From contig OX597836.1 in NCBI GenBank assembly GCA_951406725.2, positions 42,594,001 through 42,658,000 of the forward strand: 64,000 nucleotides of DNA. The letters run 5' to 3'. A program made the position numbers. Origin of the DNA: Octopus vulgaris. Taxonomy: Eukaryota. Shown in pieces: positions 4,746-15,431 of this stretch (position 1 is the stretch's first letter; each line of letters opens with the position of its first letter).

Positions 4746-7700
4746 GCATTAAATAATCGTCGTATTCCAATTTCCTTCACTTTTCAATGAATAGTAGATG
4801 AGTGACTATCCTCAGACACAACACAGGATACGCTTTCAGGCTTTTGGGGTAAAGTTTTCAGGAATAACCCAATAGGTTTACTATTAATTCTGTGAAGTAT
4901 TCATGGGTCCTGCTAGTTATTATTATTAATGTTATTCAAGGAGTAAGCTAGCAGAATCGTTAGCATGCTGGACAAAATGCTTAGCGACATTTCATCCGTC
5001 TTTACATTCTGAGTTCAAATGCTGCGGAGGTCAACTTTGCTTTTCATCCTTTCAGGGTCAATAAATTAAGTACCAGTGAAACACTGGGTCGATGTAATCG
5101 ATTAAACTCCTTCCCCAAAATTTCAAGCCTTTAGTAGAAAGAATTATTATTATTATTATTTCCCTGGGGCAGTAAAGATTTGAAATCATTAATATTTTTC
5201 ATAAAAACATTGATTTCATATATTGGAACGAGGCCAGCAATTTCTGGGAAGAGGAAAATTGATTTGAACTCAGAACACGAAGACAGACAAAATGCCACCA
5301 AGCATTCTGTTTAGTGTGCTAATGGTTCTGCCAGCTCACCACATTATTTCTACAGACAAAATATTAACACATGTTACTATCTTTGTCTTTTAGATAACAT
5401 TAAAAGCCTCAAATATACTGATGCTATGTCACCCTAGAGATTCAAGACAGTTTTTCCAAGCATGTCTACAAAACTCCCTGTTATTTGGTAATGAAGAAGA
5501 ACAAGCTTTTATGAATATAGCATATGGTGTATCATTGACAGATTTACCAGGTATGATATGACTATGATGTGTCGTAAGTTTTATCGTAATAATTCCAATG
5601 TGCACTCTACGTCCTATCTCTATTCTTTCTCTCTCTATTGTTCTTCCTTTCGTTTTTCCCTTCCTCTCGTTCCCTATTCTTCTCCCCTACTCTTCACCAT
5701 TCGCCCTCTCTCTCCCTCTTCTTCTTTGACACTCGTTGCTCACACGTGACCAATGGCTATCTATCTTTCTTTCTTCCACTTCCTTCATAAAGACAAGATA
5801 TGCATTTGCCTGTCTTTTCTGAAAGCTCGTTTTTCCAGCGTTTCCCACGTCGCATTGTCTTGGCTTAGCAGCCCTCACCATTTGGTTTTACTGTTTTGTT
5901 CTTGCTGTCCTGGTTTTGTTAGAACTTTAACCCTCTGCAAAAAATCTCAAAATTTATCTAATTTGCTTGGTGGGAAGGATTGTTTTAATGAAGTCACATC
6001 TTGTCCCTACCTTCGAAACAGGGAACAACTGTTGAGGGGAATGTTCTTTATGTTGCCTGTCTCGCTTCTCTATTTATTTCTTTTGTTCTTCAAAAGAACT
6101 TCGCTTTCTATGGTTTTGCTTTTTTCTGTTCTCGTTTCTCATTTTGTTCCCGTTCTTTTGATGTCCTGTAAACATATATGCATGTATATATGCATATATA
6201 TGTAGGTATGTACATATATGTATTTATACATGCGTATATTTATATTTTATTTATATTATTATATTATCAAACACCACACATCCATTTCCAAGTAAGTTTT
6301 ATCTATATATATCTATATATATATATCTATATCTATATCTACTACATGAACATGAAGATTGCAGAATTTAATGCATGAAAGTACTAGTTCAATCAGAATG
6401 AACATTTAACATTCTACTATTTTATTTTATTTTATTCTATTATATTATATTATCTTATAATATATCATTATAAGATTGTAAATAAAACGTGAAAATCAGA
6501 CAAGGTTGGAATTCCTTTTATTAATATATATATATATATATATTTTAACCCACGCTGGTGGAAAGGGGAGAGCAGAAATTCTTCGCTTGCATATTCGAAT
6601 TTGATAGCACTTTTAGTTCGAGCAGAATTCTAGAGGTGATTAGAAGCCGAAAGGGTATGCTCCCGACTTTCAGTGTTCCCAAATCCGATTCAAGGAATTC
6701 TGAGCTGAAGAAAGAAATGTCGAATTGACTAATCTAGAAACGTACGTTCTCAAATAACCTTTGCACTTGATTTTTTAATGTTTTTTCCCCCATACTTTTG
6801 TGAGTTGGTTTAGGCAAGCACTATCTGAGAGAGATCTTTAAGTATTAGAAATAGCTGAAGAAATTTCTTTAGCTGCTATTTCTAATGAGTTCAGTATGTG
6901 GCAAAGTAATTTATTTTACTAAGCCCTTATATATAATGTAATGTTTTGAATTCGCCTATAATGGTCCCTTTACATACTGAATACTTGGTGAAATTGATTA
7001 ATAATTAATTAATTTTACCCTCAATTGTTGAAATTATAATTCATCTCTCTCTGCTAAATGCTGCGGTTTTCACCGTTAATACATGGTGTTTGTCAATTTT
7101 AACCCACGCTGGTGGAAAGGGGAGAGCAGAAATTCTTCGCTTGCATATTCGAATTTGATAGCACTTTTAGTTCGAGCAGAATTCTAGAGGTGATTAGAAG
7201 CCGAAAGGGTATGCTCCCGACTTTCAGTGTTCCCAAATCCGATTCAAGGAATTCTGAGCTGAAGAAAGAAATGTCGAATTGACTAATCTAGAAACGTACG
7301 TTCTCAAATAACCTTTGCACTTGATTTTTTAATGTTTTTTCCCCCATACTTTTGTGAGTTGGTTTAGGCAAGCACTATCTGAGAGAGATCTTTAAGTATT
7401 AGAAATAGCTGAAGAAATTTCTTTAGCTGCTATTTCTAATGAGTTCAGTATGTGGCAAAGTAATTTATTTTACTAAGCCCTTATATATAATGTAATATTA
7501 TATATATATATATATACAGAAATAATTTATCCTCAAATGCGTGATGATGCTAATACAATAGCATAAACAGTATAAACTATCCATATTTAACTGAAAGAAT
7601 CATTACCAGCCAACTTTTGAGAATAAATTATTTCTGTATCTTTCAAAACAACGCTTCTAAAGCAAACTTTGTTTACTTTCATGCAAACATACATACATCG

Positions 7701-7753
7701 ATACATATATATATATATATATATATATAATAGAAATGTGTTACAGAAAGAAA

Positions 7754-14000: not shown

Positions 14001-15431
14001 TTTCTCCTTTTTATAGCGGCAAGCTGGTAGAATCGCTAGCATACTAAGTAAAATCTTTAGCAGTATTTTGTCCGTTTTTATATTCTGAATTCAAATTCCA
14101 ACGAGGTTGACTTTGCTTTTCATCATTTTGAGGTCAATAAAATAGGTGCCAGTAATATACTGGGGTCAATGTAATTGATTTACTCACCACCCCTGAACTT
14201 GCTAACCCTAATTTGAAACTAATATTTCTCCTTCTTCCTCCAGGTAAAGCACTTCAACTCCTGTTCAGTGCCAAGGATATCCAAAAGAAGCATAGATGGC
14301 TACACATGGACACCTCCTTGGTATTGCATTACATTGGTCTTGTGTATCTGAGAATGTAAGTACTTTGGTTTGATCAGCCTCATTGGTCAAGTGCATTTGA
14401 GATTGGAAGTAGCTTCGTTTGACCAACCAGATTAACTGAATGTATTTGCGAATGTAAGTAATTGGTTGATTGTGAATGTGAGGCTGTGTGTAATTTAGAC
14501 AAACAGTATTCCAAGAGTTAAACATGATTTTATTTATGCTGCTCAAGTTGGTCCTGAATCACAAAATTCTCCACATTGAGTCAACAAGATGTAAGAAACT
14601 TAATGCCACATGTGTGGTAGCTACATACAAACGCTTAAACATGAATATTTGATTTAAAGGTGATTTCCCTCCTTCTAGGACTGCAGCTGGGATATACAAA
14701 AAATATGTGCTTGTAGTGTGTTTGGAACAGCTGCAATGACAGGAATCATTCCACTGTAAAAGACTGGCCTAAAAGAGAGGAGCGCATAGTTGGTCGGTAC
14801 AATGTGCAGCATATACCACTGGTAGACCCGTAAAAGATCTTCCTGGATTAAACATGGTGATACCCGGTACCATGCCGTACTCAAGAAGACCCGTACTCTG
14901 ATGCAGAAGTGTTAAGATTGATCCTTCTGGTGGTGCAAAGCTCTTTTGGTGGTACCATATAAATGCGCCTGTGCAGTGTCATGTAATAGCACCCACATGG
15001 TTCCATGTAAAGGCGCCCATGTGGTGCAATGTAAAAGCAACCAGCACATCTGTGAAGGGGTTGGTGTTAAGAAGGGCATCCAGCTATAGAAACCTTGCCA
15101 AATCAGACTGGGGTCTGATGCAGCTCCCCACCTTGCCAGTTCTGGTCAAACCATCCAATCTATGCCAGCGTGGACAACAGACATTACATGATGTTGATGA
15201 TGATGATGATTTTGATGAACATATATATACACATTGCTCCATGTTTGCTGTCATATGACACATGTCTGGAGCATGCAGCCATTAGTATGACCATATAAGG
15301 AGTTTGTGTATTGGAACTCTTCTCTGCACACACGGAAGAGAGAGTTTCTTACTATTAACACATACACAAAAACATATCGTGTGTGTGTATGTATGTGTAT
15401 ATATATATATATGTGTGTGTGTATATATACT

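What the first reader, a model, noticed from the sequence alone, without database searches (positions are those of the whole stretch)
5394..14355. Steep 5'-to-3' divergence gradient between paralogues: conserved NTPase, diversified TPR
Hand-counted aa identity A vs B: exon 2 ~94% (21/342 differences), exon 3 ~85% (8/52), exon 4 ~86% (7/49), exon 5 ~70% (11/37), exon 6 ~68% (12/37), exon 7 ~69% (15/48), exon 8 ~54% (17/37). TPR scaffold residues and frames are kept. Inference: this fits a diversifying ligand-sensing domain on a constrained or homogenised switch domain, as in immune receptors.
Basis: partly seen in the sequence, partly recalled or inferred. Interest (0 to 1): 0.8.

Follow-up and report, generated by a model that had tools for sequence, protein, structure and literature searches.

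The report
Octopus receptor gene pair, partly homogenised
Two neighbouring octopus genes for an NB-ARC-like switch protein with TPR repeats look alike at the front and different at the back because the front has been repeatedly copied from one gene to the other, not because the back is being driven to diversify.

Summary
Gene A (exons 2-10, window 1855-20111) and gene B (exons 1-8, 44631-63825) are tandem paralogues in Octopus vulgaris.

Synonymous divergence rises with non-synonymous divergence: dS is about 0.08 in exon 2, 0.2-0.35 in exons 3-5, and 0.8 to saturated in exons 6-8. dN/dS stays near 0.2-0.4, and only exon 5 is near 1, on 17 differences. Intron flanks follow the same steps: 95%, then about 80%, then unalignable.

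Trees disagree between regions. Exon 2 groups by species and the TPR exons group by paralogue type, in Argonauta, O. bimaculoides and O. sinensis. Between the O. vulgaris and O. sinensis B orthologues, exon 2 has 12 differences in 342 residues and TPR exons 3-8 have 1 in 254.

Best reading: recurrent gene conversion centred on exon 2, with TPR exons that escape it and stay under purifying selection. The protein is a divergent NB-ARC-type STAND NTPase with kinesin-light-chain-like TPRs. This is a new member of a known kind, of moderate interest.

The parts
236..841 (+). Gene A: partial tandem duplicate of the end of intron 1 (including a SINE-like repeat), the exon 2 acceptor and the first 57 nt of exon 2
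   Evidence: 431-841 matches B 45356-45764 at 96.6%; three-way alignment with A 1271-1930 and B; sequence read directly.
1500..3517 (+). Gene A: young (homogenised) block, made of the last 355 nt of intron 1, exon 2 and the first 637 nt of intron 2
   Evidence: 94.45% identical to B 45356-47382 over 2036 columns; intron parts 92-95%, exon 96.2%, and 38% beyond 3517; intronic identity 936/983.
1855..2880 (+). Gene A exon 2 (342 codons): Walker B, HD1 with a GLPGL motif, winged helix and the first helical repeats
   Evidence: 100% identical to an O. vulgaris protein..
5394..5550 (+). Gene A exon 3
9906..10053 (+). Gene A exon 4 (TPR helix B plus the next helix A)
11118..11227 (+). Gene A exon 5 (the only exon with dN/dS near 1)
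12788..12898 (+). Gene A exon 6 (contains a variable loop with a one-codon indel against B)
13322..13465 (+). Gene A exon 7
14244..14355 (+). Gene A exon 8
16348..16612 (+). Gene A exon 9 (TPR). No counterpart of B lies in the window.
   Evidence: tblastn with P0002. (AG acceptor, GT donor). TPR_12 at E = 1.8e-5, below the cut-off.
19791..20111 (+). Gene A exon 10 with stop codon: C-terminal tail of about 106 aa with conserved cysteines and no known family
   Evidence: Searches gave no family.
44631..44810 (+). Gene B exon 1 (60 codons from the ATG), with Walker A GLPYVGKTS at 44772-44795
45356..47382 (+). Gene B: the block homologous to A 1500-3517
45709..46734 (+). Gene B exon 2 (342 codons)
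51977..52133 (+). Gene B exon 3
53384..53531 (+). Gene B exon 4
55313..55422 (+). Gene B exon 5
57172..57279 (+). Gene B exon 6
63462..63605 (+). Gene B exon 7
63714..63825 (+). Gene B exon 8. Exons 9-10 lie beyond the window end.

Best explanation
A and B are two members of an octopod-specific tandem family. The proteins consist of a short N-terminus, an NB-ARC-like STAND NTPase module (P-loop in exon 1, the rest in the 1,026-nt exon 2), about eight TPR hairpins resembling those of kinesin light chain (exons 3-9), and a cysteine-bearing tail of about 106 aa (exon 10).

The identity gradient between A and B reflects when each segment was last shared, not how strongly it is selected. The TPR parts of A and B come from an old duplication, apparently older than the split between Octopus and Argonauta. 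Non-allelic recombination, mainly gene conversion, has repeatedly overwritten a tract centred on exon 2 with sequence from other paralogues. A tract covering exons 3-5 was overwritten less recently.

The TPR exons that escape conversion keep their old divergence under ordinary purifying selection.

Shown here: the silent-site and intron gradient, the bounded 2-kb young block, the region-specific trees in three lineages, and the excess of exon 2 change between orthologues.

Inferred: the mechanism (conversion rather than crossover), and why conversion is limited to exon 2. Exon 2 is the only long uninterrupted stretch of homology among short exons set in long, repeat-rich introns. Selection to keep distinct TPRs may add to this.

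Inferred from fold and architecture only: the protein acts as a nucleotide-driven switch whose TPR array binds a ligand or partner.
For: 1. Silent divergence.
- NG86 and ML dS is 0.088/0.068 in exon 2, 0.35/0.35 in exon 3, 0.30/0.23 in exon 4 and 0.18/0.13 in exon 5.
- It is 0.98/0.94 in exon 6 and 0.81/1.31 in exon 7, and saturated in exon 8.
- Fisher tests on synonymous differences per site give p = 5.7e-13 for exon 2 versus exons 3-8, and p = 1.9e-5 for exons 3-5 versus 6-8.
- dN/dS (NG86) is 0.31, 0.20, 0.21, 0.96, 0.24 and 0.31 in exons 2-7. Exon 8 is below about 0.4 because its dS is saturated.
- Nd:Sd in exon 2 (22.5:16.5) equals that in exons 3-8 (91.9:63.1), p = 1.0.

2. Non-coding DNA.
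- Intronic identity is 936/983 (95%) around exon 2, 184/226 (81%) around exon 4 and 165/211 (78%) around exon 5.
- Around exons 6-8 only 11-69 nt are alignable. The null for unrelated 100-mers is 0.44 +/- 0.06.
- The young block ends abruptly at A 3517. Upstream, intron 1 (A 1-164) is only 84% identical.

3. Trees.
- The exon 2 tree joins Ahi_13 and Ahi_14 at 100/100 support, with 338/342 residues identical, and joins all Octopus sequences at 100/100.
- The tree of exons 3-9 joins Obim with Ahi_14 at 100/99 and Osin_B with Ahi_13 at 86/89.
- In the TPR region the AU test rejects an Argonauta clade (p = 0.0017) and a clade of the two O. bimaculoides paralogues (p = 5.7e-14). Those two O. bimaculoides proteins are 107/116 identical in exon 2 and 200/349 identical in the TPR.

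4. Orthologue control.
- Window B against O. sinensis B shows 12/342 differences in exon 2 and 1/254 in exons 3-8 (p = 0.0095).
- At all 12 sites the window residue also occurs in other paralogues.

5. Footprint of rearrangement. A truncated extra copy of the exon 2 start lies 1.07 kb upstream in A.

6. Protein class.
- Walker A is present.
- A profile search hits NB-ARC domains of NRC1 (7.5e-10), Sr35 and ZAR1, and kinesin light chain TPRs (2e-24).
- The AF2 model has pLDDT 82.7.
- Foldseek finds the STAND-TPR protein 6mfv (1.4e-10), CED-4 (TM 0.64) and Apaf-1.
Against: - Only two nucleotide sequences were available. No tract-detection program or site model could be run on the family.
- A PHI-like test for mosaic structure in exon 2, at protein level, was not significant (p = 0.11). 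This is despite 272 of 528 informative site pairs being incompatible with one tree.
- Exon 5 has dN/dS of about 1-1.5 (13 non-synonymous against 4 synonymous differences, p = 0.037 uncorrected). Local relaxed or positive selection there is not excluded.
- Pairwise averages of dN/dS below 1 cannot exclude positive selection at a few sites.
- The Osin_B + Ahi_13 grouping, which dates the A/B TPR split, has only 86/89 support.
- The groups for the AU tests were named after I had seen the identity table.
- The tree of the last exon is unresolved, so 3' homogenisation is only suggested.
- The full-length comparisons use database gene models (O. sinensis, O. bimaculoides, A. hians) whose exon structures I could not check against DNA.
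Confidence: 0.85

Rival explanations
1. One reading: the TPR array is under diversifying selection for new ligands while the NTPase is held constant by constraint, and this selection contrast creates the gradient.
For: - Exon 5 has dN/dS of 0.96 (NG86) to 1.5 (ML).
- Exon 6 has a variable loop with an indel between paralogues.
- The family sits in a tandem, lineage-specific cluster, as many receptor families do.
Against: - dS and intron divergence rise in step with dN.
- dN/dS is no higher in exons 3-8 (0.29 pooled) than in exon 2 (0.31).
- TPR exons 3-8 are 253/254 identical between the O. vulgaris and O. sinensis B orthologues, while exon 2 differs at 12/342.
- Between Octopus and Argonauta, exon 2 is only 63-65% identical, so it is not strongly constrained.
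- Differences are spread evenly over helix A, helix B and loops.
Confidence: 0.08
2. A single unequal crossover, or a few of them, made chimeric genes that join the 5' half of one paralogue type to the 3' half of another. Repeated short-tract gene conversion would then not be needed.
For: - Homology breaks abruptly at A 3517 in intron 2.
- A truncated duplicate of the exon 2 start lies upstream in A.
- Divergence falls into steps, about 0.08, 0.2-0.35 and 0.8 or more, rather than a smooth slope.
Against: - In Argonauta only exon 2 is shared (99%), while exon 1 (52%) and exon 3 (54%) on either side are not. That needs a two-sided tract.
- In the window, identity also drops upstream of the block, to 84% in intron 1.
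- Variants at 12 of 12 exon 2 sites are shared among several paralogues in different combinations.
- Three lineages show the same exon 2 pattern.
Confidence: 0.2
3. The low divergence of exon 2 reflects a low local mutation rate, or selection on synonymous sites, without any sequence exchange.
For: None specific. It would also give a low exon 2 dS.
Against: - Flanking introns share the low divergence and then lose homology abruptly.
- Exon 2 is 35-37% different between Octopus and Argonauta.
- The tree topology differs between regions.
Confidence: 0.02
4. An assembly or annotation artefact duplicated exon 2.
For: None. The partial duplicate at 236-841 shows that the region is repeat-rich.
Against: - The two exon 2 copies differ at 39 of 1,026 nt, have different flanks and lie 44 kb apart.
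- Matching gene models exist in O. sinensis.
- There is no N in the window.
Confidence: 0.02

Closest known systems
Zebrafish NLR-B30.2 family (Howe et al. 2016, PMC4852459; abstract and 'gene conversion' passages read)
   Same: It is a tandem family of STAND receptor-like genes. Gene conversion acts differently on the NTPase exon and on the C-terminal recognition part, and it keeps the NTPase exons alike. Synonymous divergence and discordant domain trees were the evidence there too.
   Different: - The zebrafish NTPase is NACHT with LRR and B30.2. Here it is NB-ARC-like with TPR.
- That family has hundreds of genes. This one has a handful.
- The authors report high dN/dS in B30.2. Here the TPR exons show dN/dS of about 0.2-0.4.
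NACHT/NB-ARC-TPR proteins of cnidarians (Hamada et al. 2020, PMC7642931; passages read)
   Same: The architecture is a STAND NTPase followed by TPR repeats, in an invertebrate, in lineage-specific expansions.
   Different: - There is no detectable close sequence relationship. In one search only 14 proteins reached E <= 1e-3. Those I looked up and found named are a further Argonauta protein, a hemichordate and bivalves.
- The octopod proteins have no N-terminal effector domain.
AP-ATPase / NB-ARC proteins: CED-4, Apaf-1 and plant NLRs (NRC1, Sr35, ZAR1)
   Same: - Walker A is present, and so are Walker B-like and GLPL-like motifs.
- The profile matches solved NB-ARC domains.
- The fold of the first ~360 residues matches (CED-4 TM 0.64, rmsd 4-5 A).
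   Different: - The Pfam NB-ARC score is below the gathering cut-off.
- The repeats are TPR, not WD40 or LRR.
- There is no CARD, CC or TIR domain in front.
PH0952 of Pyrococcus horikoshii (PDB 6mfv), a STAND NTPase with a TPR sensor
   Same: It is the best whole-chain fold match (E = 1.4e-10 over 792 columns). Its TPR part is also matched by the sequence profile.
   Different: It is an archaeal protein with 13% identity. The global TM is low (0.30-0.38), so the domain arrangement differs or is not well predicted.

Membership tests
NB-ARC (Pfam PF00931; AP-ATPase clade of STAND NTPases) | Score above the Pfam gathering cut-off (23.5 bits) | tested here: not met
   15.9, 19.0 and 15.5 bits for P0002, P0006 and P0014, matching only profile positions 7-78; exon 2 alone gives no NTPase family.
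NB-ARC (Pfam PF00931; AP-ATPase clade of STAND NTPases) | Walker A P-loop G-x4-GK[ST] | tested here: met
   GLPYVGKT in B exon 1 (44772-44795). G48, G53 and K54 are nearly invariant in the family alignment.
NB-ARC (Pfam PF00931; AP-ATPase clade of STAND NTPases) | Walker B (hydrophobic strand ending in DD) and a GLPL-type motif in HD1 (motif definitions recalled) | tested here: met
   KICIFDDF and CGLPGLL in exon 2 of both genes; strand 108-114 and helix 204-217 in the model.
NB-ARC (Pfam PF00931; AP-ATPase clade of STAND NTPases) | Profile similarity to solved NB-ARC domains | tested here: met
   NRC1 at 7.5e-10 (query 25-219), Sr35/CNL9 at 1.8e-9 (9-279), MLA13 at 2e-9 and ZAR1 at 8.7e-8.
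NB-ARC (Pfam PF00931; AP-ATPase clade of STAND NTPases) | NBD-HD1-WHD fold | tested here: met
   CED-4 2a5y_C at TM 0.64 and rmsd 4.7 over 359 columns. Apaf-1 5juy, NRC3, NRC4 and WRR4A at rmsd 5.4-5.7 over about 350 columns. Model pLDDT is 82.7.
NB-ARC (Pfam PF00931; AP-ATPase clade of STAND NTPases) | Nucleotide binding and hydrolysis, and oligomerisation | not testable with these tools
   This needs biochemistry.
NACHT NTPase | Match to the NACHT profile | tested here: not met
   no NACHT row up to E = 5. Only NPHP3_N appears, at 15-19 bits, below its cut-off of 24.8.
TPR repeats (PF13424 TPR_12) | Score above the gathering cut-off, and a helical-hairpin fold | tested here: met
   63.7, 44.8 and 84.4 bits against a cut-off of 30.1; kinesin light chain at 2e-24; paired helices from residue 394 to 800. 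Single exons alone stay below the cut-off.
Canonical tripartite NLR (effector domain - NOD - LRR) | N-terminal effector or adaptor domain and C-terminal LRR | tested here: not met
   Walker A is at residues 48-55 and the N-terminus is short with low confidence; no LRR, CARD, Death, TIR or PYD.
Partial gene conversion (concerted evolution of part of a gene) | Silent-site divergence much lower inside the tract than outside | tested here: met
   dS is 0.07-0.09 in exon 2 and 0.8 or more in exons 6-8. p = 5.7e-13.
Partial gene conversion (concerted evolution of part of a gene) | Non-coding flanks share the low divergence, and the tract has ends | tested here: met
   95% over 983 intronic nt, 38% beyond A 3517 and 84% in upstream intron 1.
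Partial gene conversion (concerted evolution of part of a gene) | Paralogues group by species in the tract and by type outside it | tested here: met
   shown by tree topologies and AU tests in Argonauta and O. bimaculoides.
Partial gene conversion (concerted evolution of part of a gene) | Statistically supported mosaic tracts among many paralogues | tested here: inconclusive
   272/528 site pairs are incompatible, but the PHI-like permutation gives p = 0.11 on proteins. GENECONV or GARD on DNA was not possible, because only two DNA copies were at hand.
Diversifying selection on a sensor domain | dN/dS above 1 in the domain or at sites | tested here: not met
   pooled dN/dS for exons 3-8 is 0.29. 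Exon 5 alone is about 1-1.5 (p = 0.037 uncorrected). Site models were not possible.
Diversifying selection on a sensor domain | Variable sites cluster on the binding (concave) face | tested here: inconclusive
   coarse proxy only. Helix A 29/105, helix B 24/96 and loops 15/53, p = 0.75. The helix A/B assignment rests on a recalled TPR signature.

The most novel reading that the evidence does not exclude
The homogenisation of exon 2 may be maintained by selection rather than being a neutral by-product of homology. The exon 2 module is kept interchangeable among paralogues whose TPR arrays have been distinct since before the split of Octopodidae and Argonautidae. It is 99% identical in Argonauta while every other exon there is 28-56% identical. 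Sensors with different TPRs could then co-assemble through a common NB-ARC oligomerisation surface. On this reading it is a small invertebrate sensor network whose shared switch module is enforced by exon-precise gene conversion.
Probability: 0.15. Interest if true: 0.7.

Novelty: new member of a known kind. Interest (0 to 1): 0.42.

Why it matters
It corrects an attractive inference. A conserved switch next to a variable sensor looks like an immune-receptor arms race. Here the contrast is mostly a record of which segments were recently copied between paralogues.

It is also a practical warning. Paralogue identity profiles cannot be read as selection without dS, intron divergence and orthologue controls.

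On the positive side, it defines a small NB-ARC-like/TPR family in octopods that is uncharacterised in my searches. One exon of this family has evolved in concert in at least three lineages while the neighbouring exons kept ancient divergence. This is a clean natural case for studying what limits gene-conversion tracts in intron-rich animal genes.

Tried and rejected
- Pfam on single exon ORFs gave no NTPase family for exon 2 and only sub-threshold TPR hits. Full-length database proteins were needed.
- The PHI-like mosaic test on exon 2 proteins was not significant (p = 0.11).
- The helix A versus helix B test for clustering of differences found none.
- A look-alike search with the C-terminal tail returned only unnamed clusters and ComR/Rgg TPR leads at 0.89-0.94, within the range that chance gives. 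The tail stays unassigned.
- YN00 failed on the short, diverged exons 5-8, and LWL85 failed on exon 8. NG86 and ML were used there.
- 100-nt global flank alignments (first table) are close to the null for exons 3 and 6-8, so I relied on the BLAST HSPs for flank identity.
- Literature searches found no paper on this octopod family, judging from listings only. One search (NB-ARC, TPR, mollusc, NLR) returned 1 paper, on sponge NLRs. One search (cephalopod, NB-ARC) returned 5 papers, on apoptosis or immunity in general.
- Supplementary files were not consulted.
- The spliced (joined) coding sequences of the window's genes were not assembled, searched or folded. Window exons were handled one by one, split codons were left out of all counts, and whole-protein analyses used database proteins.
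No DNA of other paralogues or species could therefore be fetched.
- No complex prediction was run.

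
Full report
**What is there**

The window is Octopus vulgaris DNA. The 342-residue exon 2 peptide is 100% identical to an O. vulgaris protein and 97% identical to one from O. sinensis. The window contains no N.

Two paralogous genes lie on the + strand.
- Gene A enters the window inside intron 1. Its exon 2 is at 1855-2880. Exons 3-8 fall at exactly the finding's coordinates (5394-14355). Exon 9 is at 16348-16612, and exon 10 with the stop codon is at 19791-20111.
- Gene B starts with an ATG exon at 44631-44810 that carries the Walker A motif. Its exon 2 is at 45709-46734 and its exons 3-8 run up to 63825. Its last two exons lie beyond the window end.

All 14 compared exons have AG/GT borders. 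Exon lengths are equal except for one codon in exon 6.

Between the two genes lie repeats, a retroelement and a 2-kb AT-only tract.

I handled the window's exons one at a time. I did not build, search or fold the joined coding sequence. Codons split by introns are left out of every count. Whole-protein work used database proteins.

On complete codons the A/B amino-acid differences are as follows:

| Exon | Differences |
|---|---|
| 2 | 21/342 |
| 3 | 8/52 |
| 4 | 7/48 |
| 5 | 11/36 |
| 6 | 11/35 (plus an indel) |
| 7 | 15/47 |
| 8 | 16/36 |

The O. sinensis orthologues add one qualification. Identity between the A and B types is 58% in exons 8 and 9 but 78% in the last exon. Over the whole gene the profile is a valley, not a one-way slope.

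**The decisive test**

It does.

| Exon | dS (NG86 / ML) | dN (NG86) | dN/dS (NG86) |
|---|---|---|---|
| 2 | 0.088 / 0.068 | 0.028 | 0.31 |
| 3 | 0.35 / 0.35 | 0.068 | 0.20 |
| 4 | 0.30 / 0.23 | 0.063 | 0.21 |
| 5 | 0.18 / 0.13 | 0.175 | 0.96 |
| 6 | 0.98 / 0.94 | 0.236 | 0.24 |
| 7 | 0.81 / 1.31 | 0.251 | 0.31 |
| 8 | saturated | 0.332 | well below 1 |

- The ratio of non-synonymous to synonymous differences is the same in exon 2 (22.5:16.5) and in exons 3-8 (91.9:63.1), Fisher p = 1.0.
- Synonymous differences per site differ strongly between exon 2 and exons 3-8 (p = 5.7e-13) and between exons 3-5 and 6-8 (p = 1.9e-5).
- Exon 5 is the one exception. It has 13 non-synonymous against 4 synonymous differences and dN/dS of 1-1.5 depending on the method. 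The p-value is 0.037 before correction for seven exons.

**Non-coding DNA tells the same story**

- A 2-kb block (A 1500-3517, B 45356-47382) is 94-95% identical throughout. It comprises 355 nt of intron 1, exon 2 and 637 nt of intron 2.
- Its intronic part is 936/983 identical. Homology stops abruptly at A 3517 (38% beyond, the level of unrelated sequence).
- Further upstream in intron 1 the identity is only 84%. The young block therefore has two ends.
- Around exons 4 and 5 the alignable intron flanks are 81% (184/226) and 78% (165/211) identical.
- Around exons 6-8 almost nothing aligns beyond the splice signals.

Presumably neutral DNA thus shows the same three steps as dS. The gradient is mainly a gradient in the time since the two copies last shared a sequence.

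**Relatives**

Fourteen long relatives were found, all from octopods: O. vulgaris, O. sinensis, O. bimaculoides and Argonauta hians. A further O. bimaculoides paralogue turned up among the shorter proteins.

The per-region identities are striking. The two Argonauta paralogues compare as follows:

| Region | Identity |
|---|---|
| Exon 1 | 52% |
| Exon 2 | 338/342 |
| Exon 3 | 54% |
| Exons 4-9 | 28-56% |
| Tail | 32% |

Trees built on six full-length proteins disagree between regions.
- Exon 2 groups by species, with Argonauta at 100/100 support and Octopus at 100/100.
- Exons 3-9 group by paralogue type: O. bimaculoides LOC106874622 with Ahi_14 (100/99), the B type with Ahi_13 (86/89), and the A type with the C type (100/99).
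- The AU test rejects an Argonauta clade in the TPR region (p = 0.0017).

Adding the second O. bimaculoides protein gives a third replicate.
- The two O. bimaculoides paralogues are 107/116 identical in the available part of exon 2.
- They are 200/349 identical in the TPR region, where their monophyly is rejected (p = 5.7e-14).
- In the exon 2 part their monophyly is not rejected (p = 0.33), although that small tree is unresolved.

Argonauta and Octopus belong to different families of Octopoda. The paralogue types are therefore old, yet exon 2 is young within each lineage.

I named the test groups after seeing the identity table, which weakens the AU p-values somewhat.

**Orthologue control**

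If exon 2 were simply more constrained than the TPRs, orthologues would show it. They show the opposite.
- Window B against O. sinensis B has 12 differences in 342 exon 2 residues and 1 in 254 residues of exons 3-8 (Fisher p = 0.0095).
- At all 12 sites the window's residue also occurs in other paralogues, and at 11 of the 12 the other species' residue does too.
- For gene A the contrast is absent: 11/342 against 6/255, p = 0.62. Two of the 11 window states are private to A.
- Exon 2 is only 63-65% identical between Octopus and Argonauta, about as diverged as the TPR exons of matching types.

So exon 2 is not unusually conserved. It is shared.

Among 11 Octopus sequences, 272 of 528 pairs of informative exon 2 sites are incompatible with a single tree. 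My permutation test for spatial clustering was not significant (p = 0.11).

A truncated extra copy of the intron 1 end plus the first 57 nt of exon 2 lies 1.07 kb upstream in gene A (236-841). It is closer to B (96.6%) than A's own copy is. This is a footprint of non-allelic exchange at that spot.

**What the protein is**

- Pfam gives only sub-threshold P-loop matches (AAA_16, ATPase_2, AAA_14 and NB-ARC at 15-19 bits) and a clear TPR_12 match.
- A profile of 15 family members matches the NB-ARC domains of solved plant NLRs: NRC1 at 7.5e-10, Sr35, MLA13 and ZAR1. It also matches kinesin light chain TPRs at 2e-24.
- An AlphaFold model of the O. sinensis A-type protein has mean pLDDT 82.7.
- The model's best fold matches are a STAND-TPR protein (6mfv, 1.4e-10), CED-4 (TM 0.64, rmsd 4-5 A over about 360 residues), Apaf-1 and the plant NRC proteins.
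- Walker A is in exon 1. Exon 2 carries the Walker B-like KICIFDDF, the GLPL-like CGLPGL, the winged helix and the first helical repeats (motif names are recalled).
- Each of exons 4-8 encodes helix B of one TPR and helix A of the next.
- There is no effector domain in front. The 106-residue cysteine-bearing tail matches nothing.
- The family is small. In 1.84 billion representatives, 14 proteins reach E <= 1e-3. Besides octopods, the hits I looked up and found named are a hemichordate and three bivalves at 22-27% identity.

**Mechanism, with shown and inferred parts**

Shown:
- the silent-site and intron steps;
- the bounded young block;
- the region-specific trees in three lineages;
- the excess of exon 2 change between the B orthologues;
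- variants shared among paralogues.

Inferred:
- The exchange is mainly gene conversion. Argonauta needs a two-sided tract, and the window's block has two ends. Unequal crossovers may also have contributed.
- Conversion persists in exon 2 because it is by far the longest uninterrupted homology (1,026 nt). The TPR exons are 108-157 nt long and sit in long, repeat-rich introns. Selection to keep the TPR types distinct may add to this.

The protein's role as a nucleotide-driven switch with a TPR sensor is inferred from fold and architecture only. No immune function was tested.

**Comparison and novelty**

Domain-specific gene conversion in a STAND receptor family has been described for the zebrafish NLR-B30.2 genes. 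There the NACHT exons are kept alike, and the evidence was likewise synonymous divergence and discordant trees (PMC4852459; abstract and passages read). NACHT/NB-ARC-TPR proteins are known from cnidarians (PMC7642931; passages read).

My searches found no paper on this octopod family (listings only). Supplementary files were not consulted.

I therefore rate the finding a new member of a known kind. It is an ordinary mechanism, seen here in an uncharacterised cephalopod family with unusually sharp, exon-limited and recurrent homogenisation.

**Limits**

- Only two DNA copies were available, so no site models or tract-detection programs could be run.
- The test of whether differences favour the concave face was only a coarse proxy. 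Helix A had 29/105 differences, helix B 24/96 and loops 15/53 (p = 0.75).
- Positive selection at a few TPR sites, with exon 5 the best candidate, remains possible.

Noticed in passing
window 236-841 (compare 1305-1910): Tandem partial duplication in gene A. A second copy of the end of intron 1, the acceptor site and the first 57 nt of exon 2 is followed by a (GATA)n/(GACA)n microsatellite. This copy is 96.6% identical to gene B, closer than A's functional copy is. It could act as a decoy acceptor or a mini-exon.
   Followed up: partly
window 21054-24970, + strand: LTR-retrotransposon-like element between the two genes. It has gag-like DUF7041, aspartyl protease, reverse transcriptase, RNase H and integrase ORFs in successive, broken frames. 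One O. vulgaris database gene model of this family (P0005) begins with 93 residues of such a reverse-transcriptase/RNase H region fused to the NB-ARC-TPR reading frame. That is probably an annotation chimera.
   Followed up: partly
window about 29900-32020: About 2.1 kb of almost pure A/T trinucleotide-type repeats. GC is 3% in the 30001-32000 window.
   Followed up: no
window 49400-50150; also 58419-59228, 19439-19554 and 44147-44239: Arrays of a 63-bp tandem repeat, open in several frames on both strands. Related copies lie near both genes.
   Followed up: no
window 11118-11227 and 55313-55422 (exon 5): This is the only exon with dN/dS near or above 1 (0.96 by NG86, 1.5 by ML). It has 13 non-synonymous against 4 synonymous differences, and a lower dS (0.13-0.18) than its neighbours.
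   Followed up: partly
window 12788-12898 and 57172-57279 (exon 6): The loop between the two helices of this exon differs in length and sequence among nearly all paralogues, even between the otherwise similar A and C types. In O. bimaculoides LOC106874622, exon 6 is B-like (31/35) while its other TPR exons are not. This suggests exchange of a single exon.
   Followed up: no
gene A exons 4-6 (9906-12898): Database isoforms skip whole TPR exons. For example, P0001 joins exon 3 to exon 7, which keeps the frame because both introns are phase 1. TPR number may be varied by exon skipping, or these may be annotation gaps.
   Followed up: no
gene A exon 10, 19791-20111: The C-terminal tail of about 106 residues has cysteines conserved across octopods and no family match. 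Among Octopus paralogues it is 78-87% identical, but only 28-41% identical between Octopus and Argonauta. This hints at homogenisation at the 3' end as well.
   Followed up: partly
window 44620-44631: The ATG of gene B follows directly after a ...tttcag acceptor-like site. An untranslated exon may therefore lie upstream.
   Followed up: no
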